DNA from: a virus
Direction: 5' to 3' (one strand)
IMG/VR virus record: IMGVR_UViG_3300006802_000086
Coordinates: 1-64,000 of that record
DNA length: 64,000 nucleotides
Part shown: piece by piece, positions 38,926 to 64,000 of the stretch
Position numbering within the stretch: position 1 is the stretch's first letter
Layout: each line of letters begins with the position of its first letter
Program-made: the position numbers and the translations under genes
Notes under the pieces: generated by a model
Told to the model about the DNA's origin: nothing
The model's input: only the letters and a program-made list of their open reading frames with translations
Database searches by the model: none

Positions 38926-39619
38926 ACTATTAGAATATAAGCTAGCTTTTGAAGAGGCTGTACAAGTTAAAAAAGAATACGAAGAAGGCGCTAATGACTT
39001 AAATTATCGCCTTTCTTTTTTTCGAAAAAGACTAGTCAAAACGCAATGCTCAAATCCTGAAGTTTTTGACGCTGCTTTTATGCGGGACAGTAAAGAATAT
39101 AATAAAACAAAAGACATAGAGATACCCAGAGTTAAAAAAGAGACACTTTTACCAAAAAACAATATAAAACCATGGGCTAAAAAATTATATAGAAAAATAG
39201 CTATATCATGTCATCCTGATAAAATCTCTAATATATCATCTAAAGAATTAAAAGAAAAGTTGACTTCTAATTATCTCATTGCGACTAAGTCATATGAAGA
39301 AGCAGAATATAGCGACTTACTTATGATAGCAGCTGACCTAAATATCGAGTTTTCAGAAGAAAAGATTCAAGAACATGTTGTACCTGATTTAATAAAAAAG
39401 ACTAATATTATAAATAGCACTAAGAAAAAAATAGAATGGCAATGGCACCACGTCCCGCATGCGATGAGAAATGATGAGCTTAAAAAAATATTAACAGCTA
39501 TGGGATTTGAGTTTACTGAAGAGCTAGTTGAAGAAGTTAATAAAAGAAAAAAGCCTAGATCTAGAAAAGCCGGGGTAAAACCAACTAACAAAATACAAAG
39601 AAGAAAAAGGCTAAGCTAG
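38894..39619 (+). CDS. J-domain-containing protein
   Basis: KKLYRKIAISCHPDK (HPD motif). Confidence 0.65.
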   Translation: MQSIKRKNKIKLLEYKLAFEEAVQVKKEYEEGANDLNYRLSFFRKRLVKTQCSNPEVFDAAFMRDSKEYNKTKDIEIPRVKKETLLPKNNIKPWAKKLYRKIAISCHPDKISNISSKELKEKLTSNYLIATKSYEEAEYSDLLMIAADLNIEFSEEKIQEHVVPDLIKKTNIINSTKKKIEWQWHHVPHAMRNDELKKILTAMGFEFTEELVEEVNKRKKPRSRKAGVKPTNKIQRRKRLS

Positions 39620-39691: not shown

Positions 39692-40507
39692 ATGCCTGAA
39701 GGACCAGAAGTAAAAATAACAACAGATTTTTTAAACATGCTTGTAGGAAAATCATTCCACAGTTTTGCAATCTTGTCAGGAAGATATACAAAAACAGACG
39801 GGATTCCAAACACAGAGATTGCAGGTTTACCGGCAAAGATATCATCGGTCAACTGTAAAGGAAAGTTTATATACTTTACGCTCACTGATGAAATACTTAA
39901 CAAAAAATACTATCTTTTTAATACACTGGGTATGACTGGGATGTGGTCAGAAAAAGAATCAAAACATTCGAGATTTGTAATTTATTTTGATGATGATACT
40001 CGACTATTTTACAATGATATTAGAAATTTTGGTACACTTAAATTTGTCCACACTAAAAAAGAACTAGACAAAAAACTTGACTCACTAGGTCCTGATATTT
40101 TAAAGACTGATATCGACTGGCTGGGATATAGAAATCGTTTTCTTAAGAAACCTAATAAAACAATTGCAGAGTGTCTTATGAATCAATCTGTGATCTCTGG
40201 CGTAGGTAATTATTTAAAAGCAGAGATATTATATGCAACAAAAATATCACCAAAAAGATTAATCAAAGATATTGTAAACGATGAATGGCATAAACTTTAC
40301 TTTGAAACAATCACAATTGCACAAAGATCGTATAAGTTGGGCGGTGCAACTATTGAAAGTTATAGACAACCTAATGGCGAAAAAGGTTTGTACAGTCGAC
40401 GTTTTGCAGTGTATAATCAAAAGTCAGATCCTTTAGGAAATGAAGTAATTAAAGAAACAACAGCAGATAAGCGTACCACACATTGGGTACCATCAATTCA
40501 AAAGTAA
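39692..40507 (+). CDS. Fpg/Nei family DNA glycosylase/AP lyase with zincless finger
   Basis: MPEGPEV, KGKF, LGMTG, DIRNFG, LGPD, LMNQ..ISGVGNYLKAE; C-terminal DPLGN...RTTHWVP with no Cys4 finger. Confidence 0.92.
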   Translation: MPEGPEVKITTDFLNMLVGKSFHSFAILSGRYTKTDGIPNTEIAGLPAKISSVNCKGKFIYFTLTDEILNKKYYLFNTLGMTGMWSEKESKHSRFVIYFDDDTRLFYNDIRNFGTLKFVHTKKELDKKLDSLGPDILKTDIDWLGYRNRFLKKPNKTIAECLMNQSVISGVGNYLKAEILYATKISPKRLIKDIVNDEWHKLYFETITIAQRSYKLGGATIESYRQPNGEKGLYSRRFAVYNQKSDPLGNEVIKETTADKRTTHWVPSIQK

Positions 40508-40516
40508 GGAGAAAAA

Positions 40517-40753
40517 ATGAAAGAAACTGTTACTCTAAATGATAGTGTTATTGCACATTTGGTAAAATTAATCCAAGTAGGTTTTTTAACAGGAACCGAC
40601 ATTGTTGATCATTTTAGAATGATCAAAATGACAATTGAAGACGGTGAACTTTTTCTAGACACAGACTATGAAAAAAATCATGAAGTCAATGTGCAAAAAA
40701 TGCTAGATGAAGCCCAAGAATTAGAAAATAAAGTAGAAGACACAGAGGGGTAA
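40517..40753 (+). CDS. Hypothetical protein
   Basis: SD AAGGAG; in operon. Confidence 0.6.
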   Translation: MKETVTLNDSVIAHLVKLIQVGFLTGTDIVDHFRMIKMTIEDGELFLDTDYEKNHEVNVQKMLDEAQELENKVEDTEG

Positions 40754-40754
40754 A

Positions 40755-41132
40755 ATGAACTGCAAGCTTGAAGAAATGTTTAAGTTAAGGCTATCATTCA
40801 TGAATATGATGAAGGAACACATTCCCGAGTCTTATCCTGAATTTCCAGTTGATATTACTGAAAAGTCATCTCAGCAAGTTTGCAGAGATTTAGCTCTCAA
40901 AGGTGTTGAAGAAATGTTTGAAGCTCTGCAACATCTCAAAAACTGGAAACCACATCGTAAGACTGAAATTAATGACGCCTTAAATAAGGAAGAGTTTTTA
41001 GAAGAAGTCGTAGATGCACTAAATTATTTTTTTGCGATGCTTATTGTCACAGGTTTTGATGACAAAGAGCTGTTTGAAGCCTATTTAAAAAAGGACAAGA
41101 AAATTAGAGAGAGGCTATTAGATGGATACTAA
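40755..41132 (+). CDS. All-alpha NTP pyrophosphatase (dimeric dUTPase/dCTPase/MazG-like)
   Basis: EEMFEA..WKPH..EEVVDALNY..YLKK..R..GY. Confidence 0.75.
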   Translation: MNCKLEEMFKLRLSFMNMMKEHIPESYPEFPVDITEKSSQQVCRDLALKGVEEMFEALQHLKNWKPHRKTEINDALNKEEFLEEVVDALNYFFAMLIVTGFDDKELFEAYLKKDKKIRERLLDGY

Positions 41133-41379
41133 AATTGTTTTTAACGGAAGACAATTTACAAATACTGTAGATCTAACAAAAGAAATAAAACAATTAAAAC
41201 CTGAAGAACTTAAGTTTTCAGGTTCTTTAGTGTACGATTCAGGGTTAAGTATGTTTTTGTTTAATTCTGTAAATTATGAAAAGATTGAGTATTATATGAA
41301 GGAAATTAACAATATTAACAAAACTAGTGAGGTGGAATTTGAATTTCAAACAGATGATGAAAAAGCAGGAAGCTTATAA
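41122..41379 (+). CDS. Hypothetical protein
   Basis: Overlapping ORF in the operon. Confidence 0.45.
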   Translation: MDTKIVFNGRQFTNTVDLTKEIKQLKPEELKFSGSLVYDSGLSMFLFNSVNYEKIEYYMKEINNINKTSEVEFEFQTDDEKAGSL

Positions 41380-42289
41380 TAGAAAAATCGTTGGAAGATC
41401 CGATCAATTATCACAAGAATTAAAAGAAAAAATAACACAAGAAAATGTTTTATGCGCTCATTCAGAATTAAGTGCTTTAGTTAACGCTACACACTATAAA
41501 AATCATCACACTCATTCAGAGCCTGTAGCAAATAGGTCGACTGTTCTTTATGAAACAGTTGATGTAATTCGCTATATGATTGCAACTTTAAATACGTGGG
41601 GTATTACGTCAGGAGAATTTGAAAAAGCCTTTGATAAAAAAGATGTATATCTCAATAAGCATCACGAGATGCAACAAAAAAAATGGGATGGTGTACAACC
41701 TGTAGCAATTGTTGACATTGATGATGTATTAGCAAATTTTAGAGAAGGATTTTCTAATTGGCTGAAGAAAGAGTACGGAGTAGAGCCTGATGTTAATTCT
41801 AAAGAATACTACTTTATTACAGCACTATCAAAAATCAATATGAACTCAGAAACTGTCTTTAAGAGGTATTTAGATAGTGGAGGATTTGCAGATCTTACTA
41901 TAGATACAGACAATTTAGAACTTTTACATCAACTTAAACACCAAGGATATTGGATACATCTTCTCACAGCAAGGCCTGAGGAAGAATTGCAATGTCTATA
42001 TGATACTTACTACTGGATTTGGCTGCAAAATATTCCTTGCGATGCAATTTCATTTTCACCTGAAAAATTTAGATGGTGTGCCAAGTCAAAATATTATGAT
42101 GCAGGTGCTATTAAATTTGCAATTGATGACGCACCTAAACACGCACAAGACTATGCTAAGCATGGAATAAAATGCTTCGTTCCTAAAAAGTCATACAATG
42201 AGCATCTTCACGATAAAAATATTTTTCTTTATAAAAATTATAGTCACATTACTAATTTATTAATGATGCAAGGTTTGTTAAGGGAATGA
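41327..42289 (+). CDS. Fusion of a degenerate all-alpha NTP-PPase domain and a HAD 5'(3')-deoxyribonucleotidase (start may be 41339 or 41354)
   Basis: N-terminal ELSAL...YETVDVIRY...FDKKD; C-terminal VDIDDVLANF, LLTARP, AIDDAP. Confidence 0.7.
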   Translation: MRWNLNFKQMMKKQEAYNRKIVGRSDQLSQELKEKITQENVLCAHSELSALVNATHYKNHHTHSEPVANRSTVLYETVDVIRYMIATLNTWGITSGEFEKAFDKKDVYLNKHHEMQQKKWDGVQPVAIVDIDDVLANFREGFSNWLKKEYGVEPDVNSKEYYFITALSKINMNSETVFKRYLDSGGFADLTIDTDNLELLHQLKHQGYWIHLLTARPEEELQCLYDTYYWIWLQNIPCDAISFSPEKFRWCAKSKYYDAGAIKFAIDDAPKHAQDYAKHGIKCFVPKKSYNEHLHDKNIFLYKNYSHITNLLMMQGLLRE

Positions 42290-42344
42290 TGATATAACTG
42301 GCTCTAACCTCATATATATGATTATATAGACAAAGGGTAAAGAT

Positions 42345-43352
42345 ATGCATGTCAAAATGTCAGATTTAAAATTAATTGTAGAAAGATTCTTAAAAGAACA
42401 AGAAGGCGACTGGCTAGGTGATGAAGAAGATAATCTAGGTAATTTAGGCGTAAACAGACTTGATCAAAAATTAAAAAATTTAAAAAATTTGTGTATTGAT
42501 CAGATTATTGATGAATTATCAAGCTCAAACTTTAGAGATCAAAACATTTCAGAACAGATGTTAAAAGTAGTAGAGCGAAACTTAAAAAATGTAAGTGTTG
42601 TTGTGTCAAAAGTCACAGCTAGTAAAGAAATTAATCTTTCTTCAATGGCTATTTGTTTTACACCTAACATTACACATACCAAAGAAGAAAATAATATGGT
42701 TTTACAGACACCTAAAATACCTAGCGACATCAATGATATTTCTAAAGATGTGCTTAGTAGATATAATTCTTCTCCTGGAAAATACCCAATCATACTTTTT
42801 CTAGAAAAAAATATATCCAGTGACATAGATGATCAGAAACTCAAAGATATTTTACTTCACGAATTAGGTCATGTTAAAAACAACACAATAAAGGCACTAT
42901 CATTAACAGCATCAGATCAGTCTGGAGAAAATATAGGAAACATTCAGCTTAATCGAGATGAGATAAAGTCAATTTTAAGAAAAGACTTTAAAGAAAAGTC
43001 TGTTAATGAAATAATATTCATATTAACTTCTGAAGGCTGGTTAGACAAAGAACAAAAAGATGAAAATCAAGAGTTAGTAAGTGAGCTTAAAGAATATTAT
43101 GATGGTGTTGAAGACTCAAGCAACATGAAAGCAGTTGAAGAGTTAGCTGTCAGAGTATCTGCGCTAAAAAGAAATAGTGAAGCTTTTACAAGATTTGTTG
43201 TCAATAAAGAAATAGATCGCTATACCAACATATCAAAAGATTATAATCTAGACATTGCTGACATAGTTTTACTTATAAGTAAAAATGCAAATACTAATGA
43301 TATAAATAAAATTGTCAAAAATAAGCAGTCAAGAAAAAATGTAACTGTATAA
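42345..43352 (+). CDS. Leader-bearing putative zinc metallopeptidase
   Basis: MHVKMSDLKLIVERFLKEQE leader; LLHELGH and a downstream EELAVR. Confidence 0.55.
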   Translation: MHVKMSDLKLIVERFLKEQEGDWLGDEEDNLGNLGVNRLDQKLKNLKNLCIDQIIDELSSSNFRDQNISEQMLKVVERNLKNVSVVVSKVTASKEINLSSMAICFTPNITHTKEENNMVLQTPKIPSDINDISKDVLSRYNSSPGKYPIILFLEKNISSDIDDQKLKDILLHELGHVKNNTIKALSLTASDQSGENIGNIQLNRDEIKSILRKDFKEKSVNEIIFILTSEGWLDKEQKDENQELVSELKEYYDGVEDSSNMKAVEELAVRVSALKRNSEAFTRFVVNKEIDRYTNISKDYNLDIADIVLLISKNANTNDINKIVKNKQSRKNVTV

Positions 43353-43367
43353 AATATTTGATATAAT
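43339..43367 (+). promoter_or_regulatory. Sigma70-like promoter
   Basis: ATGTAA-N17-TATAAT with extended -10 TG. Confidence 0.7.
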
Positions 43368-43398
43368 AAAAAATATAAAACATACTAAAGGAGAAAAT

Positions 43399-43626
43399 AT
43401 GATTTTATTACTAGCAACACTATTTACAGCACAAGCAGAAGAAAACATGATCAGATATCAAAATAAAACAGAGATTGACTTTGACGCATTAGAACTTACG
43501 GGCGAAATGGTAAAACCGCAAGGATCACTAATCATTGAGAGAAGTAACGTTCGATTCAATCCGCTTATTGAACTTCGCAAAGACTTTAATCCGGAAATGG
43601 CAAAATCAGTTAACTTAATTAAGTAG
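43399..43626 (+). CDS. Exported small protein resembling gliding-motility protein CglF/GltF
   Basis: Signal peptide ending AQA; KTEIDFD..ELTGEMVKPQG...R...FNPLIELRKDF.PEM.KS; has its own promoter, SD and terminator. Confidence 0.7.
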   Translation: MILLLATLFTAQAEENMIRYQNKTEIDFDALELTGEMVKPQGSLIIERSNVRFNPLIELRKDFNPEMAKSVNLIK

Positions 43627-43666
43627 TTTTCCTGACCAATAAAACTAATTAGTTTAGTAATTTTTT

Positions 43667-43705
43667 AAGCACTATTTTGTAATAGTGCTTTTTTTGTCAT
43701 ATAAT
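43667..43705 (+). terminator. Terminator hairpin with an embedded promoter for the thyX operon
   Basis: AAGCACTATT-ttgt-AATAGTGCTT-TTTTT; TTGTAA(43677)-N17-TATAAT(43700). Confidence 0.8.
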
Positions 43706-43740
43706 GATTATACAAATTAAATATTAAAAAAGGAGAATGG

Positions 43741-44727
43741 ATGCCTCAAAACAGTAACTTAAAACCTATTACGTTGCCGATGCAACTTAAATTTGGTGAA
43801 AAGCCAAAAACAGAATTTTACAACAATTTATCTGCACTTAAAGTTGAACTAGTTGATTCACCTACCAGATCGCAGGCACTCAATGTTGCATGGCAATATG
43901 TCAAAGCAACATGGGCAGATCATCATGATGAGACAAACCCATCTACTACATCTTTGCAAGAATTGTCAGCCAATCTAGAAGACGTGCTTAATTTTCGCGC
44001 ACTTCCAACTCCAATGGAGTGCCTAGGATTTACCTTTAAATTAAGCGGGCTTTCATTCCAAGAAGTAACTCATATCATTCGACATCGAGCTGGATCATTT
44101 GCTGCACAGTGCACAGGTGACCGTGATCTTCGACATGATCCTGCTGTTATTCCAGAAGCTGTACAAAATAGTCCAGAATTTTTAACTCGTTGGAAGAAAT
44201 TAGTAGAAGATAGCAAACAACTTTATGCAGACATGACAGACTCAAAAGATGTGTCTATGATGGACGCACGAATGATCCTTCCAAAAGCAATGACGTCCTT
44301 TTATCTTATGCGCCTCAATCTTAAAGATCTACTAGGTTTTATTGCGCAACGTCAAGATATGCAAATTCAACCTGCTGCTGATAATCTTCTTGCTGTCTAC
44401 ATGGCACGTGAAGTCCTAAAGATTTTACCAGAAGCTAGCACGCGCATTAATTTCGACAAACCAGACATGCATTATGTGAAAACTTTCCGTGTACCTGATG
44501 GTAAAGGTGGTCATACATCTCGAGGTACAAATCTGTACTGGCCAGAACCTAAGAATGATAAGTTTGAGTATCATCCTGATGACAGTATTTACCAGGCACG
44601 CCGCGAAGATATCAACGGGACACACAATCCAGGAGGTGATACTGTATTTACAAAATTGTGGTCAGAAACAATTGAAGAGATCGATGAAATGAAATATGAA
44701 TATAACAAATTTATGGGGAGAGAATAA
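43741..44727 (+). CDS. thyX: Divergent flavin-dependent thymidylate synthase (ThyX-like)
   Basis: HIIRHRAGSFAAQC (RHRx7S with Ser replaced by Cys), DARMILP, NLKDLLGFIAQR. Confidence 0.7.
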   Translation: MPQNSNLKPITLPMQLKFGEKPKTEFYNNLSALKVELVDSPTRSQALNVAWQYVKATWADHHDETNPSTTSLQELSANLEDVLNFRALPTPMECLGFTFKLSGLSFQEVTHIIRHRAGSFAAQCTGDRDLRHDPAVIPEAVQNSPEFLTRWKKLVEDSKQLYADMTDSKDVSMMDARMILPKAMTSFYLMRLNLKDLLGFIAQRQDMQIQPAADNLLAVYMAREVLKILPEASTRINFDKPDMHYVKTFRVPDGKGGHTSRGTNLYWPEPKNDKFEYHPDDSIYQARREDINGTHNPGGDTVFTKLWSETIEEIDEMKYEYNKFMGRE

Positions 44728-44728
44728 T

Positions 44729-45178
44729 ATGAGTTTAGGAAAAGTTTATTTAGCAAGTGGGTGGTTTTCACCTGAATGGTTGGAAGAAGTAGAAAATATC
44801 AAAGCGGTATTTGAAAAACACGGTGTTAGTTATTTTTCACCAAAAGATGAAAATCTATGTGATAACGACGCAAATGAGTCAATGCAAGATCAGATCTTTA
44901 GTGGTAACATTAAACACTTGCATGAATGCGATTGGATGTTGTGTAACACACGCAACAAAGATATGGGAAGTATTTTTGAGGCAGGTTATATGAACTGTCT
45001 AGAAAAACCAATCGTATATTTCTGCGACGGCCTTCCTCCAGGTGCACAATTTAATCTTATGTTGGCAGCTAGTGGTATTAAGGTTTGTCGATCGTTAGAA
45101 GACCTAGATACATACCTTGCACAATGCAAAACTACAGAAAGACTAGTCGTTGAAAGATATCAAGGAGATATTGAGTAG
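44729..45178 (+). CDS. Nucleoside 2-deoxyribosyltransferase / nucleotide N-glycosidase family protein
   Basis: VYLASGWFS, FSPKD, DMGSIFEAGY, KPIV, NLML. Confidence 0.85.
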   Translation: MSLGKVYLASGWFSPEWLEEVENIKAVFEKHGVSYFSPKDENLCDNDANESMQDQIFSGNIKHLHECDWMLCNTRNKDMGSIFEAGYMNCLEKPIVYFCDGLPPGAQFNLMLAASGIKVCRSLEDLDTYLAQCKTTERLVVERYQGDIE

Positions 45179-45210
45179 ATTAATCTTTAGTCTTCTTAAG
45201 CCTAACAGGA

Positions 45211-48200
45211 TTAAGCTAATGCTTTCTTGTTAGGCACTATTTTAACTAAAATTAAGAAAACTGTATGTGATCTGTTAATTGATATCTTTTTCATAGTTCC
45301 ACCTGTTGTCGATGTGTTGTCTAAATTACCACCAATTAATTTTCCTCCTGAGTAAACGTTCATATGTGCACCTGACTGAGGCTCCGATCCTGCAAATTTT
45401 TTAAAGGTTTTCATACCGCAACCAGAAGGAAGTCCTCTTTTAGAACTATAACCGTTAAGCGAAAAGACGCCGTCTAGAAGGTTTAAGTCAGATCTAGATT
45501 CGACCTCTTCCCTAGTAAAGGGTAGCAAAACTACTTGCCCGATAAAACTTTCAGGATCATTTTCAACTTCTTGTCTTTTTAACATTAATTGTGCCCACGG
45601 GTATGAAATCCCCATTTGCTTTGGCACGCTGTTTACTATATCGTAGGCAGGATGCGAAGGAGTTACCATTGCATTGAAAGTATGTCCACTCCAAGCTACT
45701 CTATTTAAGTACTTCCAACTATCTTTAATATTGACAGGCATGAATGTATCTGGGTGCATCAGCGCTATTTTTCCGTCACCATGATTTGTAATTGCTTGCT
45801 TGACAACAATATCATTTATTTTCTTAAGACCTTCTTCTGACTTTTCGCCAAACCCTGTGATTTGTGAAAGTAATCTCTCACCCTCAGCAGCACCTGCAGA
45901 CATGTCCAGCTGTTCAAACTTAATAGGTAAAGAATCCTCATCTAAAAATGCATGTTCCTTCGGATTAAAATTTTTCTTAGAAGCTTTTGAAGAGTTGTCC
46001 TTGACAGAATTCGAAGACTTCGATACTTGTTTTTCTTTTTCAATAATTTTTTTCTGAAGTTCACTATTTCCTTTAAACGATTTACTTACTGCATCTGGGC
46101 CGCTATAATTACCGTCCTTAATATCTTTGTATACTTTGGCAGGATTAATATAGTTTTCTTTAAATAAATAATTTCTAATTTTACGAACTGATTCATTCAA
46201 AGGTTCAATCTTAAAATTCTTGTCAACACCTCTTTTTGCCTGTCCTATCTGTCCGGACACGGAATCGACAGCAATAACAATGTCATCAATATAGAATTTA
46301 TAATATCTGTTTTTCATACCTCTGCCAGCTGTATATGTTCCAGGCTCACCTTTTTTATCTCCGTAAGCCATTTCCATTTTTCCACCGGTATCTTGATTTT
46401 TCTTTTTATTGAATTCCTGCGTAGCTTTTTTAATAGCTTCCGGGTCTTGTGCGAGTCTTACCATCTCTGCAACGCCTGAAGGATTTTTCTTTTTCGGATC
46501 ATTAAGTACTAAACTAGCCACTTGTGCAGCGTTATTTTTAAATTTAAGAATCGTTTCTTTTTTAACACCCTTGTCAATTGCTGCTTTTATAATCATGTCA
46601 ATATTTTTTTCGATCCAGGCCACCCAAGCTTTGTCTGTGTTAGGCCCCCAATCTCCATCAACTGTAGTACCAATAACACCTTGGACATATTCAACATCTT
46701 TTTTATTATTTTCTATTAAGACACTTTTAATTGCTTTTCTTAAGCTTGCTTCTGTTAAAATCATTTTACCTTTCCTTGTTTTAAAAATATTTTCTGCCAT
46801 GGCTTTTTGCTTAGGCATAATTTCTGATTCAATTGTTGCAACAAATTGCTCACCAGGCTTTTCATCAACATGCACACCATCTCTCGAGCTAGTAACATTT
46901 GACTCAAACCACGGGTAGGGATCGATAACATTAATTCTTCCTGACATTCCTAATTGAGACTCAACAGCATCAATACCTGCAACAATCTCTCTGTTTCTTT
47001 TTGCTCGAGTTGCTTTAAATTTTGAAACTTCTCGCTCAGGTTTTCCAGGGGTGTTGACATATGTTGTTTTCTCTGTAGGTTTAACTGCAGGCGGCGCCAA
47101 GACCCAAGTTATTTGTGCGTCTTCTGGGGCATTTTGTAAAATATCTTTTGCCAAATAACTAGCTCTGCTAGAACCGTTGCCGCCTAGCGTAAGGATAATA
47201 TTGTTTGTTCTGCTGACTGCATCAATAATTTTATCTTCCCCAAACTCACTCATGACGCCTGCTGGTGTAGCTCCGTTCTTCTGAAAAAAGTTCTTTCCCT
47301 TCGTAGCTGTGCCTAGGCGTTTTCTAATTCCTTTTCCTAGACCGCTGTTGCCTTGACTGTCTGCAATGTATACATACGGGAGAGGTTCGTCAGAAGATTC
47401 TCTCTGTTGTTTCTGTTCGCCACTTTCTCCTTCAAATCCTAATAAAAATAATTTAGCTTCTTCGTGCCTTCTCTTTTCTAGGCCCTGCACATATTCACCC
47501 TTGCTAGTTCTAGGTTTTGCATCTATTACATCAGCTGCTTCTTTATAACGACCTTGATTAATTAATTGCGTTATAGACTCGCCTTTATTATTTTTAAATT
47601 TATTTAAAGCACTTGCACCTCCATTAAAGCAATAACTTGCTAATGCAACAAACATGTTATGAGTGATTGGTGCTTTTAATTGTGACTTAAATACTCGTGT
47701 ATGTTTTGCAACGTCGCTTCCAAAGAGTTCTAGAGCTTGTTGTAAATTCATTTCCTTTGATCCACTTCCTAAAAATTCTTTAAATTTTTCTCTTTCGTTT
47801 GATCTAATTAAGTGCCCAATGCCAATTGTTGGATATCCGCTTGACTCTTCATAGCTATTTATTGTTCTCCCGCCTTTGTCATCATAAACTTTTGATCTAA
47901 AACCTTCACCGCCTTTTATAAATACTTGAATTTCTTTAGACACGTCTTCGTATTGACTAGCACTTTTTAATGTTTGATCCGCAGTAAATTTTCCACCACC
48001 AGCCTTGTTAATTTTTGCCTCAAGACCTTTGACAGCTTTGTTAACAATTTTAGCGTCTGAATTTGAATTATTACCTGGCGAAGTAGGAATATTAAGTTTT
48101 GACTTTGATTTCACAGCTTTCTTAAGTGTGTCAGCTTTTTTCTTGATAGTATCCTTAAACTCACTGCTAATTTTCTCTGCACCTTTTATGCTCCCAGATT

Positions 48201-49272
48201 CAATTCCTTTTTGGACTTTGTCAATAATTTTGCTTACATCTAATTTTCTCTCTCTTAGAATTTTATATCTATGTCTTTTTAGAATTCTTTGTTCTTTTAA
48301 GTATTCCCCGCCTTTTCCTCTAGGTCTTTGGTAAACTTCACCATCAGTATCAATAGCAACTGCAACATCATCAATCCAAAATTTTAAATAGTCTTTGTCG
48401 ATACCTTTGCCTGTCTCTGCTTTTTTAAACCCCATTAATACTGGCTCGTTATTTGTTCCAAATTTTTTAAGATACTCTTCATACTCTTCTTTAAAAGTTG
48501 TATATGCTAACTTAAAATGGTCATTGTTAAAACTACCTCGCCTTCCTAAGGTTTTGTCATCGCTAGGCAGGTCTTTAAGCGCATTTGCAATTTCTTCTTT
48601 AGATTTATTATCATTAATCCAGTCTCGAAACATATCACCCTTATCTTGGTTTAAATCTTTAGGAATTCTTTTAAGCTGCTCATCTGTAAATTCATATTTT
48701 TTATCTTTTGAAGATTTCGATTGTGATTTTGTTCCACCATATTTTTTATCTAAATTCTCACCACCTTTCTTGTTGATAGGTGTCCAAGGTCCATTATTTT
48801 TACTGTAACTCCACCCAAATTCTGCAGAAGGATCTTTTTTGTATTTGTAAACACCGTCGCCATCATCGTATATTTTTTCTTTAGAAAAATTTTCTATCTT
48901 TCCTATTTGTTCAGCGGCCGGCCCTGAAATAACTTTATATTTGCCATTACCTAAGTCTTCGTAAGTAAAGCCTGATAAGTCTTTGTCAGATTTAATCCCA
49001 AGTTCTTGAGCATTTTTACCTAAAGTTTCTTTTTTGGTAAATTCTTCATAATAAGTTTTAAGCATGTAATAAGCTACTCTTTTCCCATCAGGAACATCTG
49101 CCTTATCTAAAGCTGCCTTTATATTTGGTGCTTTTGTAGATTTAAAACGCAAAGCATTGTCATTAGAGCCAAAACCTGTGTCAAAGCCTATATACTTTTT
49201 TGATTCTTCTTGCTCGCGAAGAAGTCTTTTGAGTGATTTAATTTTAATAAGTTTGTTTAGATTGTTATTCAT
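45211..49272 (-). CDS. Multidomain cell-envelope hydrolase: GH24 lysozyme, SGNH esterase, PG-binding domain and possible amidase-like C-terminus (1353 aa)
   Basis: EGFRSKVYDD..GYPTIGIGH..ALASYCFN..GLEKRRHEEAKLF; IADSQG/LGGN/DGVH; VDGDWGPNT; AWSG...H...IGGN. Confidence 0.75.
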   Translation of the reverse strand: MNNNLNKLIKIKSLKRLLREQEESKKYIGFDTGFGSNDNALRFKSTKAPNIKAALDKADVPDGKRVAYYMLKTYYEEFTKKETLGKNAQELGIKSDKDLSGFTYEDLGNGKYKVISGPAAEQIGKIENFSKEKIYDDGDGVYKYKKDPSAEFGWSYSKNNGPWTPINKKGGENLDKKYGGTKSQSKSSKDKKYEFTDEQLKRIPKDLNQDKGDMFRDWINDNKSKEEIANALKDLPSDDKTLGRRGSFNNDHFKLAYTTFKEEYEEYLKKFGTNNEPVLMGFKKAETGKGIDKDYLKFWIDDVAVAIDTDGEVYQRPRGKGGEYLKEQRILKRHRYKILRERKLDVSKIIDKVQKGIESGSIKGAEKISSEFKDTIKKKADTLKKAVKSKSKLNIPTSPGNNSNSDAKIVNKAVKGLEAKINKAGGGKFTADQTLKSASQYEDVSKEIQVFIKGGEGFRSKVYDDKGGRTINSYEESSGYPTIGIGHLIRSNEREKFKEFLGSGSKEMNLQQALELFGSDVAKHTRVFKSQLKAPITHNMFVALASYCFNGGASALNKFKNNKGESITQLINQGRYKEAADVIDAKPRTSKGEYVQGLEKRRHEEAKLFLLGFEGESGEQKQQRESSDEPLPYVYIADSQGNSGLGKGIRKRLGTATKGKNFFQKNGATPAGVMSEFGEDKIIDAVSRTNNIILTLGGNGSSRASYLAKDILQNAPEDAQITWVLAPPAVKPTEKTTYVNTPGKPEREVSKFKATRAKRNREIVAGIDAVESQLGMSGRINVIDPYPWFESNVTSSRDGVHVDEKPGEQFVATIESEIMPKQKAMAENIFKTRKGKMILTEASLRKAIKSVLIENNKKDVEYVQGVIGTTVDGDWGPNTDKAWVAWIEKNIDMIIKAAIDKGVKKETILKFKNNAAQVASLVLNDPKKKNPSGVAEMVRLAQDPEAIKKATQEFNKKKNQDTGGKMEMAYGDKKGEPGTYTAGRGMKNRYYKFYIDDIVIAVDSVSGQIGQAKRGVDKNFKIEPLNESVRKIRNYLFKENYINPAKVYKDIKDGNYSGPDAVSKSFKGNSELQKKIIEKEKQVSKSSNSVKDNSSKASKKNFNPKEHAFLDEDSLPIKFEQLDMSAGAAEGERLLSQITGFGEKSEEGLKKINDIVVKQAITNHGDGKIALMHPDTFMPVNIKDSWKYLNRVAWSGHTFNAMVTPSHPAYDIVNSVPKQMGISYPWAQLMLKRQEVENDPESFIGQVVLLPFTREEVESRSDLNLLDGVFSLNGYSSKRGLPSGCGMKTFKKFAGSEPQSGAHMNVYSGGKLIGGNLDNTSTTGGTMKKISINRSHTVFLILVKIVPNKKALA

Positions 49273-49353
49273 ATAACTCTGCCTCTAGAATATTTTGATA
49301 AACATATTATATATATGTTCTATAATTTTAAAATAATAGCAAAGCAATTAATT

Positions 49354-49382
49354 ATGAAAACTTTAAAACTTCTAAGTATTAT
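49354..49382 (+). promoter_or_regulatory. Sigma70-like promoter
   Basis: ATGAAA-N17-TATTAT. Confidence 0.55.
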
Positions 49383-49403
49383 AAGTTTATTAGAGGAGGT
49401 TTT

Positions 49404-50396
49404 ATGAAAAAAGTATTTATTACCGGTGAAAAAGGTTTTATTGGAACAAATTTGGCCAAACGTGCCAAATTACACGGTTTCGAACATGTCTCTGGTGTGC
49501 ATGCACAAAACGAAGACGCAGTTTTCGTATCACAATATGTCACAGAAAAGGGTGAACCTTGTGTGCATCAAAATAGCGAGGAAGCATGGCAATCTTTCTT
49601 TGAAGTCAACAGCATCGACTATGTAATCCATAATGCAGCAGTTGTAGGTACAGATGTAGTTGCACTCAATGCAAAAGAGTCAACATTAACCAACGTGCAA
49701 GGTACTTTCAACATCTGTCGTGCTGCAAAGAAATGCGGTATTCCAGTCTGTTATATGGGAACCACAGTTATTTATGACACACCTAAGTATCAACAATCAG
49801 CTATTGTCGAAGACTCCGATCGCGGCCCTAGTACATTCTACGGTTGTCAGAAACTCTCAGCTGAGGAAGTTGTCAAGTCTCATAGCAGCAAGTGGATGAT
49901 CGTCCGCCCACTCTTTGCTTATGGCGGTGAAGGTGATATGAATTCTCTTATTGCCAAAACGATCTATGCAAAACTCAACGGTGTAGAAAAGATCCAAATG
50001 TTTCTCGATCCTAGTAAGATTAAAGACTACTTACATGTCAATGACTACTGTGACGGTGTTTTCTCTTGCATGAAAGAAGACAAGTGCTGGAACAATGACT
50101 TTAATATCGCCGCAGAAACACCACTTGTCACCGGTGAAATTATCAAATTAATGGACGAAGTGTGTGGTCAGAGTTTCGCAGATACTGTAGAATGGCTTCC
50201 GCAGACTGAATATATGGGAAATCATATCTTATCAAGTGCAAAAGCAAGAGAGTATACTGGCTGGTCTCCACGTATATCACTGGCTAAAGGTATTCGCATG
50301 TCATACGAAAGTATTCTCAAGTCAGAAGGTTATAATCCTCTGCGTTATCTTGAAGAAGCAGCAGAGCGCAATATTGATTTAACAGAGTATTTTTAG
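49404..50396 (+). CDS. NAD-dependent nucleotide-sugar epimerase/dehydratase (extended SDR)
   Basis: ITGEKGFIG, HNAA, YGCQK (YxxxK), RP..AYG, KDYLHV.D; SD GAGGAGG. Confidence 0.9.
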   Translation: MKKVFITGEKGFIGTNLAKRAKLHGFEHVSGVHAQNEDAVFVSQYVTEKGEPCVHQNSEEAWQSFFEVNSIDYVIHNAAVVGTDVVALNAKESTLTNVQGTFNICRAAKKCGIPVCYMGTTVIYDTPKYQQSAIVEDSDRGPSTFYGCQKLSAEEVVKSHSSKWMIVRPLFAYGGEGDMNSLIAKTIYAKLNGVEKIQMFLDPSKIKDYLHVNDYCDGVFSCMKEDKCWNNDFNIAAETPLVTGEIIKLMDEVCGQSFADTVEWLPQTEYMGNHILSSAKAREYTGWSPRISLAKGIRMSYESILKSEGYNPLRYLEEAAERNIDLTEYF

Positions 50397-52650: not shown

Positions 52651-52668
52651 ATTAAAAAAGAGGTGATC

Positions 52669-61624: not shown

Positions 61625-62536
61625 ATGTCATACACTACACCAATAAACTATATTTTTATTGAAGGGCCTGACTGCAGTGGGAAAACAACACTTTATGAAA
61701 TGATCCACAAAGAGTCAGGTTATCAATGGAATATTCAAGATCGATCAGCGTTATCAATGTTAATCCATGCCCGATATTATGGTCGTGATACATTTAATCA
61801 TGTTGAACAGTTAAAAAAAGAGCTATACAACATTAACAATCAGTTGGTTATATGTCTACCGGATTGGAAAGTGATTGTTGAACGATTTCAAAAACGCGGC
61901 GACCCTATTCAAAATATTACTAGCCTTCGCAAAATCTATGAACTGTTTGAAGAGGCAGTACAAGAGTTTCAAAACTATGCAAACGTAACAGTTATTAGAC
62001 ATGAAGTAAATAAGCACACAGTAAAAGATTTAGTTACATGGTTTAAATATTTTGAAAGACGTTCTTTGAGTGAGTTGCAAACTTATGTATTACAAACAGT
62101 TGCAGCAAGTGGTAAAAAAGAAGCTTTAGGTTTTAATTTTGTTCATTATGACACCGGTGATTTTAATGATATTAATAAACAGATGTTATTGTATGATAAA
62201 GAAAAAGATTATTATCAAAAAATTGAGACTGCAGTTTTTGACAAGATTAAATCAGAAATGAAAGGAGAAAACGAATATGAAAGACCGGAAGAATTGGACT
62301 CGAGAAGATTTATTTATACTGATGATTCTTGTATTAGTCTTGCTCATTTTTTAGTTCGTGACGGTTATATGGATGCTAAATTCTTTTTGCGATCATCAAA
62401 TGTTAAAGATACATTGCGATATGATTTAAATTTTGTTAAACACTTGTCAGGCGAGGTTTTTCGTTATTTCAAATGCGATAGACAAGGTGACTATTGCAAA
62501 ATTGAAGTTGTCATTAATTCAGGACATGTAATATAA
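61625..62536 (+). CDS. dNMP kinase fused to a thymidylate-synthase-like catalytic core
   Basis: IEGPDCSGKTT, QDRS..S..Y, RGD; C-terminal DSRRF..SCI..HFLVRDG..FLRSSNV...RYDL...SGHV. Confidence 0.7.
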   Translation: MSYTTPINYIFIEGPDCSGKTTLYEMIHKESGYQWNIQDRSALSMLIHARYYGRDTFNHVEQLKKELYNINNQLVICLPDWKVIVERFQKRGDPIQNITSLRKIYELFEEAVQEFQNYANVTVIRHEVNKHTVKDLVTWFKYFERRSLSELQTYVLQTVAASGKKEALGFNFVHYDTGDFNDINKQMLLYDKEKDYYQKIETAVFDKIKSEMKGENEYERPEELDSRRFIYTDDSCISLAHFLVRDGYMDAKFFLRSSNVKDTLRYDLNFVKHLSGEVFRYFKCDRQGDYCKIEVVINSGHVI

Positions 62537-62970: not shown

Positions 62971-63390
62971 ATGAAAGTTAAAATTAAAAAATTGCACACA
63001 GAGGCAGTAATTCCCCAATATGCAAAACCAGGTGATGCAGGTATGGATTTGACTGCGGTTCACGTTTCAACTGATCAATATGGTTGTTTTACATATCACA
63101 CAGGATTAGCAGTTGAGATACCACCTTGGCACGTTGGTCTCCTGTTTCCAAGATCTTCTATATATAAAACTGGACAAAGACTTACAAATTGTGTAGGCGT
63201 AATTGATAGCGGTTATAGAGGCGAAATCATGATGAAGTTCTCTCTATCAGCTAATCGCAATGAATATCAAATTGGTGATAGAATTGGTCAGCTAATTATT
63301 CTTCCATACCCTCAAATTAAGTTTGAAGAAGTCGACTCACTTGATAGTTCTGAACGCGGCGAAGGTGGTTATGGAAGCACCGGTAAATGA
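62971..63390 (+). CDS. dut: Trimeric dUTPase
   Basis: AGMDL, TGLA, PRSS, GVIDSGYRGEI, GDRIGQL, RGEGGYGSTG. Confidence 0.95.
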   Translation: MKVKIKKLHTEAVIPQYAKPGDAGMDLTAVHVSTDQYGCFTYHTGLAVEIPPWHVGLLFPRSSIYKTGQRLTNCVGVIDSGYRGEIMMKFSLSANRNEYQIGDRIGQLIILPYPQIKFEEVDSLDSSERGEGGYGSTGK

Positions 63391-63631
63391 AAAAAACATA
63401 AAACCTGGCGATTTTATTTTATTAAAAATAATGAACAGGTGGAAGAAGTATGAAGTATCAAGTGTTAAAGATGACTGGATTTATTTTAAAAATCCGGACG
63501 GAAAAGAGTTCGTTCTGAACACAAAAATACACACACATCATATGAAATATCCTAAAACTAAAAAAACAGAAAAAATCAAAGACAAAAAGAAAACAAAGAA
63601 AAAAACAACAAGGAAAAAGAAAAATGGGTGA
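63371..63631 (+). CDS. Small basic hypothetical protein (start uncertain)
   Basis: ATG 63371 preceded by GGTGG; Lys-rich tail. Confidence 0.45.
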   Translation: MEAPVNEKNIKPGDFILLKIMNRWKKYEVSSVKDDWIYFKNPDGKEFVLNTKIHTHHMKYPKTKKTEKIKDKKKTKKKTTRKKKNG

Positions 63632-64000
63632 ATACGATTTTATGATAAAAAGAATACAAAAATTAATTATTGATGTTCCGGACTTTCCAAAACCCGGAAT
63701 TTTGTTTAAAGATATATCGCCTATTTTTAGCGATCAAAGTGAGCTTCGAAATCTCATTACAGCACAAGCTCGCTTTATTAAAAACAACGGCCGAGACTTT
63801 GATAAAATCGTAGCAATAGAGTCACGAGGTTTTCTTTTAGGGACACTTCTTGCTTATGAAACCGGTTTACCCCTGGTGCTTGCTAGAAAAGCAGGAAAAC
63901 TACCTAGAGAAACTGTATCAGCCTCATATGGGTTAGAATACGGAAGTGATAAAATTGAAATTCATACCAGTGACATATTAGAAGACGAACATGTCTTGAT
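63624..64000 (+). CDS. apt: Adenine phosphoribosyltransferase (3'-truncated by window)
   Basis: Hand translation: DVPDFPKPGILFKDISP, AIESRGF, RKAGKLP, YGLEYGSD. Confidence 0.92.
   Translation, partial: MGEYDFMIKRIQKLIIDVPDFPKPGILFKDISPIFSDQSELRNLITAQARFIKNNGRDFDKIVAIESRGFLLGTLLAYETGLPLVLARKAGKLPRETVSASYGLEYGSDKIEIHTSDILEDEHVL

What the first reader, a model, noticed from the sequence alone, without database searches (positions are those of the whole stretch)
39692..50396. Nucleotide-remodelling cluster suggesting a non-canonical, possibly sugar-bearing DNA base
Seen: setting aside the inserted leader genes and cglF-like gene, this region holds a Nei glycosylase, an all-alpha NTP-PPase, an NTP-PPase/HAD nucleotidase fusion, an atypical ThyX, a deoxyribosyltransferase/N-glycosidase and an NDP-sugar epimerase. 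The kinase-TS fusion and a normal trimeric dUTPase lie at 61.6-63.4 kb. Established: phages with substituted DNA pair a TS-family modifier and kinase with a pyrophosphatase that removes the canonical dNTP (T4 gp42/gp1/gp56). NDT-family members MilB and DNPH1 hydrolyse hydroxymethylated pyrimidine nucleotides. Inference: a pyrimidine substitution pathway whose combination I do not recognise. No DNA glycosyltransferase is visible in this window, so the epimerase could instead serve virion glycosylation.
Basis: inference. Interest (0 to 1): 0.75.

Follow-up and report, generated by a model that had tools for sequence, protein, structure and literature searches.

The report
Phage gene set for modified cytosine
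This fragment of an uncultured giant water phage carries a conserved gene set that most likely replaces DNA cytosine with 5-hydroxycytosine, perhaps sugar-coated; it is a stripped-down, fused variant of a pathway published in 2025-26 and includes a rewired ThyX-like enzyme of unknown role.

Summary
The contig is only about 26% of a roughly 300 kb myovirus genome.

The decisive gene lies outside the given span, at 61625-62536. It fuses a YorR-like nucleotide kinase to a roughly 160-residue minimal thymidylate-synthase (TS) fold. That fold keeps the catalytic Cys, Asp at the Asn177 position (dCMP-type) and Asn at the Asp169 position. Lee et al. (NAR 2026) found the last change diagnostic of flavin/O2-dependent 5-hydroxy-dCMP synthases.

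The span itself holds supporting parts:
- a gp56-like all-alpha NTP pyrophosphatase
- a degenerate copy of it fused to an NT5C-type nucleotidase
- a true deoxyribosyltransferase
- a NEIL1-like glycosylase
- a sugar epimerase
- a rewired ThyX

Relatives carry a canonical ThyX as well, so the rewired copy is probably not the dTMP synthase. It travels with the minimal TS-like enzyme in three unrelated phage lineages, including cultured Geobacillus phage GR1.

No glycosyltransferase lies on this contig. Two relatives that reach about 115 kb upstream carry a GT4 pair, so sugar decoration is plausible but unproven.

This scan has already met the fusion and the rewired ThyX on other genomes. Verdict: a new variant of a known kind.

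The parts
39692..40507 (+). NEIL1/mimivirus-Nei1-like DNA glycosylase with a zincless finger. N-terminus MPEGPEV; no Cys4 finger.
   Evidence: Pfam gives three Fpg/Nei domains. The best solved relatives are 3a45, 3a42, 3vk7 and 4nrw at E 6e-53, against about 1e-21 for bacterial Fpg. Sequence. Present in 17 of 36 related loci.
40517..40753 (+). 78-aa conserved small ORF of unknown function, always directly upstream of the NTP pyrophosphatase.
   Evidence: No Pfam or PHROG hit. tblastn match in 30 of 36 loci.
40755..41132 (+). All-alpha NTP pyrophosphatase (MazG/gp56/DCTPP1 superfamily); candidate dCTPase/dUTPase.
   Evidence: phrog_12184 E 1e-13. BLASTP to the RB69 gp56 dCTPase E 3e-4. EExxE and EExxD are invariant (A5). 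AF2 pLDDT 91. Foldseek rows are weak (E 0.5-1) but are all DR2231, dimeric dUTPases, DCTPP1 or HisE. Present in 30 of 36 loci.
41327..42289 (+). Fusion protein. The N-domain is a degenerate paralogue of the NTP pyrophosphatase with the EExxE motif lost. The C-domain is an NT5C-type HAD 5'(3')-deoxyribonucleotidase with the DIDDV, T and DD motifs intact.
   Evidence: Pfam NT5C E 7e-7, phrog_420 and phrog_415. Paralogy E 9e-8. Sequence. Present in 23 of 36 loci. A homologous HAD gene sits next to a standalone TS-like gene in the unrelated contig L054.
43741..44727 (+). Rewired ThyX paralogue of 328 aa. Motif RHRx7C with the Arg displaced, Leu at the position of the T. maritima folate-stacking His53, and a roughly 90-aa C-terminal extension.
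   Evidence: Pfam Thy1 E 1e-17. No PDB hit by single sequence. The profile hits T. maritima ThyX only at E 1e-3, and the best hit is the S88C mutant. Relatives also hold a canonical ThyX. It co-occurs with the minimal TS-like gene in GR1 and in G012.
44696..45178 (+). Nucleoside 2'-deoxyribosyltransferase. The start is probably the Met at 44729, two bases after the ThyX stop codon.
   Evidence: PF05014 E 1.5e-16. PDB 6evs E 5e-7 and 1s2d, with the D..G..FE.G catalytic motif aligned. Present in 35 of 36 loci.
49404..50396 (+). SDR-family NDP-sugar 4-epimerase-like enzyme (SDR1).
   Evidence: PF01370 E 8e-29. The best PDB hits are Pal (6bwl) and the GalE 4zrm at E about 5e-15. An SDR occurs in 27 of 36 loci.
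61625..62536 (+). Key enzyme. A YorR-like dNMP kinase (aa 1-148) is fused to a minimal TS fold (aa about 150-303) with Cys236, Asn259 (ThyA Asp169 position), Asp267 (ThyA Asn177 position) and Asp233/234 (near the Leu143 position). It is a predicted 5-hydroxy-dCMP synthase plus kinase.
   Evidence: AF2 pLDDT 93.5. The Foldseek top hit is 9iqu, the HY126 dCMP hydroxylase, E 4.8e-6, followed by 9iqc and T4 dCMP hydroxymethylase. VIA-align gives YorR Z 13.4 over residues 8-148 and TS 3v8h Z 9.9 over 151-303. The profile hits T4 dCH at E 0.015 with Cys and Asp aligned. hhalign to RB69 gp48 gives E 2.4e-5. Family statistics.
62971..63390 (+). Canonical trimeric dUTPase.
   Evidence: PF00692 E 2e-21.
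63624..64000 (+). Phosphoribosyltransferase, running past the window end to 64181. Beyond the window lie SDR2 (64225-65226, a WbpP/WbgU-like UDP-HexNAc 4-epimerase), thymidine kinase (65181-65801), a DHH phosphoesterase (65815-66651) and an Fe/Mn superoxide dismutase (67338-68015).
   Evidence: Pfam. SDR2 against PDB gives WbpP and WbgU at E 1e-42 and 6dnt at E 1e-49.

Best explanation
The region is the nucleotide-supply module of a roughly 300 kb aquatic myovirus that builds its DNA with a C5-modified cytosine, most likely 5-hydroxycytosine.

Proposed flow:
1. The all-alpha NTP pyrophosphatase (40755-41132) returns dCTP, and perhaps dUTP, to the monophosphate. This keeps dCTP away from the phage DnaE polymerase and feeds dCMP forward. 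This step is inferred by analogy with T4/RB69 gp56.
2. The minimal TS-fold domain of the 61625-62536 protein attacks C6 of dCMP with Cys236. It reads cytosine through Asp267 and, like the Asp169-to-Asn enzymes RB69 gp48, DLP3 gp80 and HY126 AfhB, uses a flavin and O2 to make 5-hydroxy-dCMP. Fold and signature residues are shown; the chemistry is inferred.
3. The fused YorR-like kinase phosphorylates the product, and host NDP kinase finishes the job (inferred).
4. After replication, glycosyltransferases encoded elsewhere in the genome may add sugars to the 5-hydroxyl. A GT4 pair is seen in two relatives. The two conserved UDP-sugar 4-epimerases would supply Gal- or GalNAc-type donors. This is the weakest step.

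The HAD nucleotidase, deoxyribosyltransferase, thymidine kinase and dUTPase recycle deoxyribose into dTMP for a 65% A+T genome (inferred).

The NEIL1-like glycosylase probably removes 5-hydroxyuracil, the mutagenic deamination product of 5-hydroxycytosine (inferred).

The rewired ThyX is a flavoprotein tied to the minimal TS-like enzyme and is probably not the dTMP synthase. Its reaction is unknown.
For: TS-like domain:
- The model is confident. The nearest solved structures are the phage dCMP hydroxylase 9iqu/9iqc and T4 dCMP hydroxymethylase. A TS aligns over residues 151-303 at Z 9.9.
- Profile-to-sequence alignments place Cys236 on T4 Cys148 and Asp267 on T4 Asp179.
- Against RB69 gp48, a validated 5hodCMP synthase, the motifs SRR, C, RSxN, D and SAHV all align.
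- Lee et al. (PMC13326640) showed that Asp169-to-Asn predicts 5hodCMP synthesis in every homologue they tested. They also showed that these enzymes work with a dNMP kinase.
- Their clusters hold a YorR- or Tmk-like 'nucleotide kinase' beside the synthase. Here that kinase is fused (YorR Z 13.4).
- Asn occupies this position in 113 of 117 close family members.

Linkage of the accessory genes:
- Gene order is conserved in 36 loci.
- In the unrelated complete contig G012/L054, a standalone TS-like gene is followed directly by HAD/NT5C and dUTPase_2/MazG genes.
- In cultured Geobacillus phage GR1, the kinase, rewired ThyX and minimal TS-like (RSSN, D) are separate neighbouring genes, with NDT, a 459-aa glycosyltransferase and a nitroreductase-type flavoprotein nearby.

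Rewired ThyX is not the housekeeping copy:
- A canonical ThyX is present in G001, G002, G008 and G012, and a ThyA in G010.

Glycosylation:
- A GT4 pair (PF00534, PF20706) lies in both relatives whose contigs reach about 115 kb upstream of ThyX.
- SDR2 resembles WbpP/WbgU at E 1e-42.
Against: - No chemistry was measured. The Asp169-to-Asn rule was validated only on full-size TS homologues of 217-240 aa, not on this roughly 160-aa minimal fold. That fold lacks much of the usual cofactor-binding surface, and Pfam PF00303 does not detect it.
- Fold similarity to 9iqu is moderate (TM 0.41 by target length, rmsd 5.7 A). Sequence links are weak (E 0.015 and 2.4e-5).
- The specificity of the NTP pyrophosphatase is unknown. 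It resembles dUTPases as much as dCTPases.
- The phage encodes a NEIL1-like glycosylase, and that family excises 5-hydroxycytosine (own knowledge). This would be self-destructive unless the base is shielded or the enzyme is selective.
- No glycosyltransferase is on this contig. The relatives' GT genes sit beside baseplate genes and, in G001, next to UGDH, sulfotransferase, methyltransferase and GT2 genes. That arrangement looks like glycan synthesis.
- About 40% of family representatives carry Asp rather than Asn at the diagnostic site, so the family is not uniform.
Confidence: 0.55

Rival explanations
1. The phage does modify cytosine at C5 through the kinase/TS-like fusion, but the product is not 5-hydroxycytosine. 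It could be 5-hydroxymethyl- or 5-methyl-dCMP, or a base made jointly with the rewired ThyX flavoprotein.
For: The fold is equally close to T4 dCMP hydroxymethylase. 59 of 150 family representatives have Asp at the diagnostic site, so both chemistries may exist in the family. The Asn rule is untested on minimal folds. The rewired ThyX co-occurs with both the Asn-type and the Asp-type fusions.
Against: This protein and 113 of 117 close relatives have Asn. It shares the SAHV motif with RB69 gp48. The minimal fold lacks the N-terminal folate-binding elements that a hydroxymethylase would need.
Confidence: 0.17
2. This is ordinary nucleotide salvage and pool sanitation in a large phage with canonical DNA. 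The enzymes boost dTTP supply and remove dUTP and damaged bases, and the TS-like domain is a regulatory or nucleotide-binding relic.
For: MazG, dUTPase, TK, NDT, NT5C, RNR and ThyX are common auxiliary genes of large aquatic phages. Each has a canonical salvage role. A Nei glycosylase fits plain repair.
Against: The catalytic Cys, both Arg of SRR, R-S and the cytosine-type Asp are invariant across 145 or more of 150 representatives at 50% clustering. That level of conservation indicates an active enzyme. A cytosine-reading TS fold has no role in canonical salvage. The fusion to a kinase mirrors the synthase-plus-kinase pairs of proven 5hoC phages.
Confidence: 0.13
3. Cytosine is modified, but the base carries no sugar. 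The epimerases, and the relatives' glycosyltransferases, serve virion or host-surface glycans instead.
For: There is no GT on this contig. In G001 and G007 the GT4 pair lies next to a gp25-like baseplate gene. G001 adds UGDH, sulfotransferase, methyltransferase and GT2 genes typical of polysaccharide synthesis.
Against: Both epimerases sit inside the replication and nucleotide module, flanking DnaE and the fusion gene, in most relatives. Both GT4 proteins pass the cut-off of PF20706, 'GT4 in conflict systems'. GR1 has a GT inside its version of the module. All known 5hoC phages glycosylate it. An unshielded 5hoC would be a substrate for the phage's own NEIL1-like enzyme (own knowledge).
Confidence: 0.35

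Closest known systems
Glycosylated 5-hydroxycytosine pathway of Escherichia phages RB69 and HY126 (Afh genes), Acinetobacter phage DLP3 and Rhizobium phage RL38JI (Lee et al., NAR 2026, PMC13326640; PDB 9iqu, 9iqc)
   Same: A TS-fold enzyme with the catalytic Cys, Asn177-to-Asp and Asp169-to-Asn. A partner nucleotide kinase of the YorR/Tmk type. An all-alpha dCTPase-like NTP pyrophosphatase. NDP-sugar enzymes. GT4-type transferases in relatives.
   Different: - The TS fold is cut down to about 160 aa, invisible to Pfam PF00303, and fused to the kinase.
- The sugar genes are 4-epimerases, not the arabinose-5-P isomerase, kinase-uridylyltransferase and phosphatase set.
- Extra conserved partners are a rewired ThyX, NDT, an NT5C-type nucleotidase fused to a dead MazG domain, and a NEIL1-like glycosylase.
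- The replicase is DnaE rather than PolB.
- The hosts are uncultured aquatic bacteria.
T4 hydroxymethylcytosine system (gp42 dCMP hydroxymethylase, gp1 dNMP kinase, gp56 dCTPase, alpha/beta-glucosyltransferases)
   Same: The same logic: remove dCTP, modify dCMP with a TS homologue carrying Asp at the specificity position, phosphorylate with a phage kinase, glycosylate on DNA.
   Different: The diagnostic Asp169 position is Asn here, whereas T4 has Asp (RSNDV). There is no recognisable folate-binding N-terminal part. The kinase is of a different family (YorR-like, not gp1). No T4-type glucosyltransferase is present.
Flavin-dependent thymidylate synthase ThyX (Pfam PF02511; T. maritima TM0449)
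   Same: The 43741-44727 protein has the ThyX fold signature, the RHR motif, and the Arg residues matching T. maritima R147 and R174.
   Different: - Cys replaces Ser88.
- The S-x-R-Y segment is replaced by C-T-G-D-R.
- Leu replaces the folate-stacking His53, and Gln75 becomes His.
- It has a 90-aa C-terminal extension.
- Relatives keep a separate canonical ThyX.
Mimivirus Nei1 and human NEIL1 (zincless-finger Fpg/Nei glycosylases; Imamura et al. 2012, cited in PMC7139703)
   Same: This is the best sequence match by 30 orders of magnitude over bacterial Fpg. It has the N-terminal Pro-Glu and no zinc-finger cysteines.
   Different: It is encoded by a phage predicted to carry 5-hydroxycytosine, a base that this enzyme family normally excises (own knowledge). 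Its substrate range is untested.

Membership tests
[quoted passage not shown] | Thymidylate-synthase fold | tested here: met
   AF2 pLDDT 93.5. Foldseek gives 9iqu at E 4.8e-6, plus 9iqc and T4 dCH. VIA-align gives TS 3v8h at Z 9.9, rmsd 2.8 A, 133 residues over model positions 151-303.
[quoted passage not shown] | Catalytic Cys (E. coli ThyA Cys146) | tested here: met
   Cys236 aligns with T4 Cys148 and with the RB69 gp48 Cys. It is Cys in 145 of 150 representatives.
[quoted passage not shown] | Asp at the ThyA Asn177 position (dCMP specificity) | tested here: met
   Asp267 aligns with T4 Asp179. It is Asp in all 139 aligned representatives.
[quoted passage not shown] | Asn at the ThyA Asp169 position (diagnostic, per Lee et al. 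2026) | tested here: met
   The RSSN motif (Asn259) aligns with RSQN of RB69 gp48 and with RSND of T4. It is Asn in 113 of 117 close homologues and in 68 of 150 representatives.
[quoted passage not shown] | Full-size TS domain of about 217-240 aa, recognised by Pfam PF00303 | tested here: not met
   The domain is about 160 aa. There is no PF00303 hit at E 0.01 or below. Single-sequence phmmer against PDB finds no TS.
[quoted passage not shown] | Flavin binding and O2-dependent hydroxylation of dCMP | not testable with these tools
   This needs protein purification and the plasmid-nucleoside LC-MS assay of PMC13326640.
[quoted passage not shown] | Cognate nucleotide kinase | tested here: met
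   The N-terminal domain matches YorR 3kb2/2axp at Z 13.4, and the profile gives E 1e-7. DLP3 gp78 also hits YorR in Lee et al. Table 1.
T4-type complete cytosine replacement | dCTP-specific pyrophosphatase | tested here: inconclusive
   It is an all-alpha NTP pyrophosphatase with intact metal motifs. BLASTP to RB69 gp56 gives E 3e-4. Fold rows include both DCTPP1 and dUTPases. Specificity is unknown.
T4-type complete cytosine replacement | DNA glycosyltransferase | tested here: inconclusive
   None is on the 79 kb contig, which is 26% of the genome. A GT4 pair lies in both relatives that reach about 115 kb upstream. Its target is unknown.
ThyX (flavin-dependent thymidylate synthase) | Thy1 domain | tested here: met
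   PF02511 E 1.3e-17, 64.6 bits against a cut-off of 24.8.
ThyX (flavin-dependent thymidylate synthase) | ThyX motif RHRx7S-x-R-Y | tested here: not met
   The sequence reads RHRAGSFAAQCTGDR. Cys124 sits at the Ser position and the Arg is displaced by two residues. This is invariant in the family. The canonical copy in relative G001 reads RHRTWSYNEISRRY.
ThyX (flavin-dependent thymidylate synthase) | Folate-stacking His (T. maritima His53) | tested here: not met
   The HMMER alignment places invariant Leu88 (LPTPME) against HETPFE. The role of His53 is from own knowledge.
Nucleoside 2'-deoxyribosyltransferase | PF05014 domain with the catalytic Glu | tested here: met
   PF05014 E 1.5e-16. The FEAG Glu aligns with the nucleophile region of 6evs and 1s2d.
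DNPH1/MilB-type nucleotide N-glycosidase | Membership of the DNPH1-like subfamily (PF15891) and a phosphate-binding motif | tested here: inconclusive
   PF15891 scores 29.2 bits, below its cut-off of 30. No DNPH1 or MilB chain is among the PDB hits. The GWF motif is of the nucleoside-type enzymes (own knowledge).
Fpg/Nei DNA glycosylases | Three domains, N-terminal Pro-Glu, and a zinc or zincless finger | tested here: met
   Three Pfam domains. N-terminus MPEGPEV and a Cys-free C-terminus. The best match is the zincless viral Nei1 group at E 6e-53.

The most novel reading that the evidence does not exclude
The rewired 330-aa ThyX paralogue is a new flavoenzyme of pyrimidine-nucleotide modification that works with the minimal TS-like domain. 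It might deliver reduced or oxygenated flavin to a TS fold too small to hold its own cofactor, or it might perform a second C5 reaction. On this reading, this very abundant aquatic jumbo-phage lineage, and Geobacillus phage GR1, would carry a hypermodified cytosine not yet chemically described, for example Gal- or GalNAc-type glycosylated 5-hydroxycytosine.
Probability: 0.3. Interest if true: 0.8.

Novelty: new variant of a known kind. Interest (0 to 1): 0.62.

Why it matters
The enzyme family is large. It has 409 representatives at 50% identity, and hundreds of near-identical copies occur in Tara, JGI and ENA metagenomes. Pfam-based screens, such as the one used to chart 5-hydroxycytosine phages, cannot see it.

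If the prediction holds, several things follow.
- A widespread lineage of giant aquatic phages has non-canonical cytosine. That would bias metagenomic library preparation, restriction and CRISPR sensitivity, and nanopore base-calling.
- The minimal TS fold would show how little of the scaffold is needed for flavin-dependent hydroxylation.
- The recurrent pairing with a rewired ThyX, beside a normal ThyX, points to an uncharacterised flavoenzyme.
- Geobacillus phage GR1 is cultured and carries the split version of the module, so the whole hypothesis is directly testable at the bench.

Tried and rejected
- **Complex prediction.** Complex prediction of the rewired ThyX (A2) with the minimal TS-like domain (A4) gave no answer (score 0.00). 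This is not evidence either way.
- **Locus searches.** The search for related loci found nothing with representatives P0369 and P0345. The alignment A3 was too diverse to search with.
- **tblastn against phage records.** The TS-like domain against 50,697 phage records gave no match. Only GR1 appears when GR1-like queries are used.
- **megablast of the region against phages.** No match.
- **Single-sequence PDB searches.** The ThyX, the NTP pyrophosphatase and the fusion nucleotidase gave nothing useful.
- **Variable genes between NDT and the epimerase in relatives.** These were screened for glycosyltransferases. None was found. They are PG-binding, TseH-like, DnaJ, ligase and VWA proteins.
- **The conserved 241-aa gene upstream of Nei.** It looked like a candidate pathway member but resembles viral J-domain proteins.
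- **HAD domain against RB69 gp51 (the AfhF-like sugar phosphatase).** Only E 0.004 over 59 residues. It was therefore rejected as an AfhF homologue in favour of NT5C type.
- **RNA data.** No RNA holder was listed among the sequencing runs, and read laying was not used.
- **Glycosyltransferase in other relatives.** The GT protein of G001 was not found in five other partial records. This is explained by those contigs ending before the syntenic position.

Full report
**What the DNA is**

The window is the first 64 kb of a single 78,992-base viral contig. CheckV rates it 26% complete. It encodes a tail sheath, tube and baseplate hub. It also encodes gp32-like SSB, RecA, DnaB, RNR and ClpP and a DnaE-type polymerase. 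It is therefore a fragment of a roughly 300 kb myovirus.

No deposited phage is close at the DNA level. Near-identical DNA sits in freshwater-labelled metagenomes. Relatives occur in salt-marsh and Tara samples.

**The observation**

The gene order is conserved across 36 IMG/VR loci fetched through the ThyX gene:

[J-domain-like 241 aa] - Nei - 78-aa ORF - NTP pyrophosphatase - [85 aa] - MazG/HAD fusion - (variable) - ThyX-like - NDT - (variable cargo) - SDR1 - 135-aa ORF - DnaE - kinase/TS fusion - dUTPase - PRTase - SDR2 - TK - DHH

The 335-aa, 75-aa and antisense 1353-aa genes occupy variable slots. In relatives those slots hold unrelated cargo.

**The key enzyme**

The 303-aa product of 61625-62536 folds with pLDDT 93.5 into two domains.
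- Residues 8-148 match the Bacillus prophage kinase YorR (Z 13.4) and Tmk- or dNK-type kinases.
- Residues 151-303 align with thymidylate synthase (Z 9.9, rmsd 2.8 A, 133 residues).
- By Foldseek the best solved match is 9iqu, 'phage HY126 dCMP hydroxylase AfhB with dCMP' (E 4.8e-6). It is followed by 9iqc and T4 dCMP hydroxymethylase.

A family profile finds T4 dCMP hydroxymethylase in the PDB (E 0.015). Cys236 lies on Cys148 and Asp267 on Asp179. hhalign against RB69 gp48 gives E 2.4e-5, with SRR, Cys, RS-x-N, Asp and S-A-H-V in register.

In E. coli ThyA numbering the protein has Cys146, Asn177-to-Asp, Asp169-to-Asn and an acidic residue near Leu143. Lee et al. (PMC13326640) showed three things:
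- RB69 gp48 and DLP3 gp80 make 5-hydroxy-dCMP with a flavin and O2.
- The product needs a phage dNMP kinase to reach DNA.
- Asp169-to-Asn was diagnostic in all nine further homologues tested.

Their clusters also contain a YorR- or Tmk-like 'nucleotide kinase' next to the synthase. Here the two are one polypeptide.

The family is large: 708 close homologues and 409 representatives at 50% identity. About half are 300-aa fusions and half are 150-230-aa standalone proteins. Cys, R-S and the cytosine-type Asp are essentially invariant. The diagnostic site is Asn in 68, Asp in 59, Glu in 8 and His in 5 of 150 representatives. Among close relatives of this protein it is Asn in 113 of 117.

The domain is only about 160 aa and Pfam PF00303 does not see it. 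That is probably why HMM-based surveys have not listed it.

**Accessory genes**

*NTP pyrophosphatase.* The 125-aa protein is an all-alpha NTP pyrophosphatase with invariant EExxE and EExxD motifs. It shows weak direct similarity to the RB69 gp56 dCTPase (E 3e-4). Its fold neighbours are DR2231, dimeric dUTPases and DCTPP1. Its specificity is open.

*MazG/HAD fusion.* The N-domain of the next protein is its paralogue (E 9e-8) but has lost EExxE. The C-domain has intact HAD motifs of the NT5C deoxyribonucleotidase type.

*Link to the TS-like enzyme.* In the complete, unrelated 81 kb contig G012/L054, a standalone Asp-type TS-like gene is followed at once by HAD/NT5C and dUTPase_2/MazG genes. 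It is preceded by a dCMP deaminase. This is independent evidence that these two genes belong with the TS-like enzyme.

*NDT.* The NDT protein matches true nucleoside deoxyribosyltransferases and keeps the catalytic Glu. I found no support for a MilB- or DNPH1-type nucleotide hydrolase. With the nucleotidase and thymidine kinase, it can move deoxyribose between bases at the nucleoside level.

*Nei.* Nei is most like the zincless viral Nei1/NEIL1 group (E 6e-53 against about 1e-21 for bacterial Fpg). The assignment of those PDB codes to mimivirus Nei1 is from my own knowledge, as is that family's activity on 5-hydroxyuracil and 5-hydroxycytosine. Imamura et al. 2012 is cited in PMC7139703. This creates a tension with 5hoC DNA. 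The tension is resolved if the base is glycosylated or if the enzyme is tuned to the deamination product 5-hydroxyuracil.

**The rewired ThyX**

The 328-aa protein is a ThyX by Pfam but reads RHRx7C-TGDR. It has Leu where the T. maritima enzyme has the folate-stacking His, His at the Gln75 position, and a 90-aa tail. All of these are invariant in its family.

- G001, G002 and G008 each hold a second, canonical ThyX (E 1e-34 to 4e-50; motif RHRTWSYNEISRRY). It lies 56-78 kb downstream of the rewired copy. This contig ends 35 kb downstream, so it cannot show one.
- G012 has a canonical ThyX directly beside a 326-aa rewired paralogue with the same Leu and Cys features.
- A GR1 relative has a ThyA as well.

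In GR1 itself, the rewired ThyX (47% identical to this one) is followed, with overlapping stop and start codons, by a 151-aa minimal TS-like gene with RSSN and Asp. The kinase half is a separate gene 1.2 kb upstream. A nitroreductase-type flavoprotein, NDT, an HD protein and a 459-aa glycosyltransferase are nearby.

So the rewired ThyX and the minimal TS-like enzyme travel together in three unrelated phage lineages, usually beside a normal thymidylate synthase. I conclude that the rewired ThyX probably does not make dTMP. What it does instead is unknown. A complex prediction gave no answer.

**Sugar**

SDR2 (64225-65226) resembles the UDP-GlcNAc 4-epimerases WbpP and WbgU (E 1e-42). SDR1 is a more distant GalE/Pal-like enzyme. 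No glycosyltransferase is on the contig.

In G001 and G007, a syntenic block PD-(D/E)XK nuclease - GT4 - GT4 lies about 115 kb upstream of ThyX. Both GT4 proteins also pass PF20706. The eight other partial records all end before that distance, so the pair is present in both informative records.

Its neighbours are a gp25-like baseplate gene and, in G001 only, GT2, UGDH, sulfotransferase and methyltransferase genes. A virion or host glycan target therefore cannot be excluded.

**Verdict**

This is the supply module for a C5-modified cytosine, most likely 5-hydroxycytosine. It is a fused, minimal variant of a pathway described in 2025-26, with extra conserved partners whose roles are open.

This scan has already reached the same reading of the fusion and of the rewired ThyX on several other genomes of this lineage.

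- the co-conservation statistics
- the recurrence of the TS-like, HAD and MazG triad in an unrelated phage
- the split arrangement in a cultured phage
- the canonical ThyX copies in relatives
- the position of the GT4 pair

No chemistry has been measured, so the product and the sugar remain predictions.

Noticed in passing
window 45211-49272 (-): This is the lone antisense gene of 1353 aa, with a phage-lysozyme domain at residues 456-605. It sits in a variable slot between NDT and the epimerase. In relatives that slot holds unrelated cargo: PG-binding, TseH-like, DnaJ, DNA ligase and VWA proteins.
   Followed up: partly
Geobacillus phage GR1, OK896991.1 23909-30175 (L002 7158-13424): This cultured siphovirus carries the split form of the module: NDT, thioredoxin, HD protein, a 459-aa glycosyltransferase, a YorR-like kinase, RNase H, a nitroreductase, the rewired ThyX and a 151-aa minimal TS-like gene with the Asn and Asp signature. 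The last is annotated as hypothetical. GR1 has no other thymidylate synthase.
   Followed up: partly
family of the 61625-62536 C-domain (A4; P0251-P0400): The family splits almost evenly between Asn and Asp at the ThyA Asp169 position, in both fused and standalone forms. In the loci examined, SDR1 is present in 3 of 4 Asn-type loci and in the single Glu-type locus, and absent from all 4 Asp-type loci. The sample is small and not phylogenetically independent.
   Followed up: partly
genome 67338-68015 (L001 7338-8015), outside the window: This is a phage-encoded Fe/Mn superoxide dismutase just downstream of the nucleotide module. It could cope with reactive oxygen from flavin/O2 chemistry.
   Followed up: no
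G001 (IMGVR_UViG_3300028384_001500) 202-214 kb (L044, L045): This island holds three GT1/GT4, two to three GT2, a split-looking UDP-glucose dehydrogenase, a sulfotransferase, a methyltransferase, a cupin and a PIN-PhoH protein, next to a gp25-like baseplate gene. Only the nuclease-GT4-GT4 core is shared with G007.
   Followed up: partly
window 38894-39619: This 241-aa gene is conserved in 22 of 36 related loci and evolves fast (about 30-45% identity). By the ESM Atlas it resembles viral J-domain proteins.
   Followed up: partly
window 23729-26203: The class I/II-type ribonucleotide reductase large subunit carries a C-terminal TSCPD domain. The following 322-aa ORF (26323-27291) has no Pfam hit, although an RNR small subunit might be expected there.
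   Followed up: no
window 40517-40753 and 52663-53070: Two small conserved ORFs (78 aa in 30 loci, 135 aa in 9 loci) are fixed neighbours of the NTP pyrophosphatase and of the epimerase/DnaE genes. Their function is unknown.
   Followed up: no
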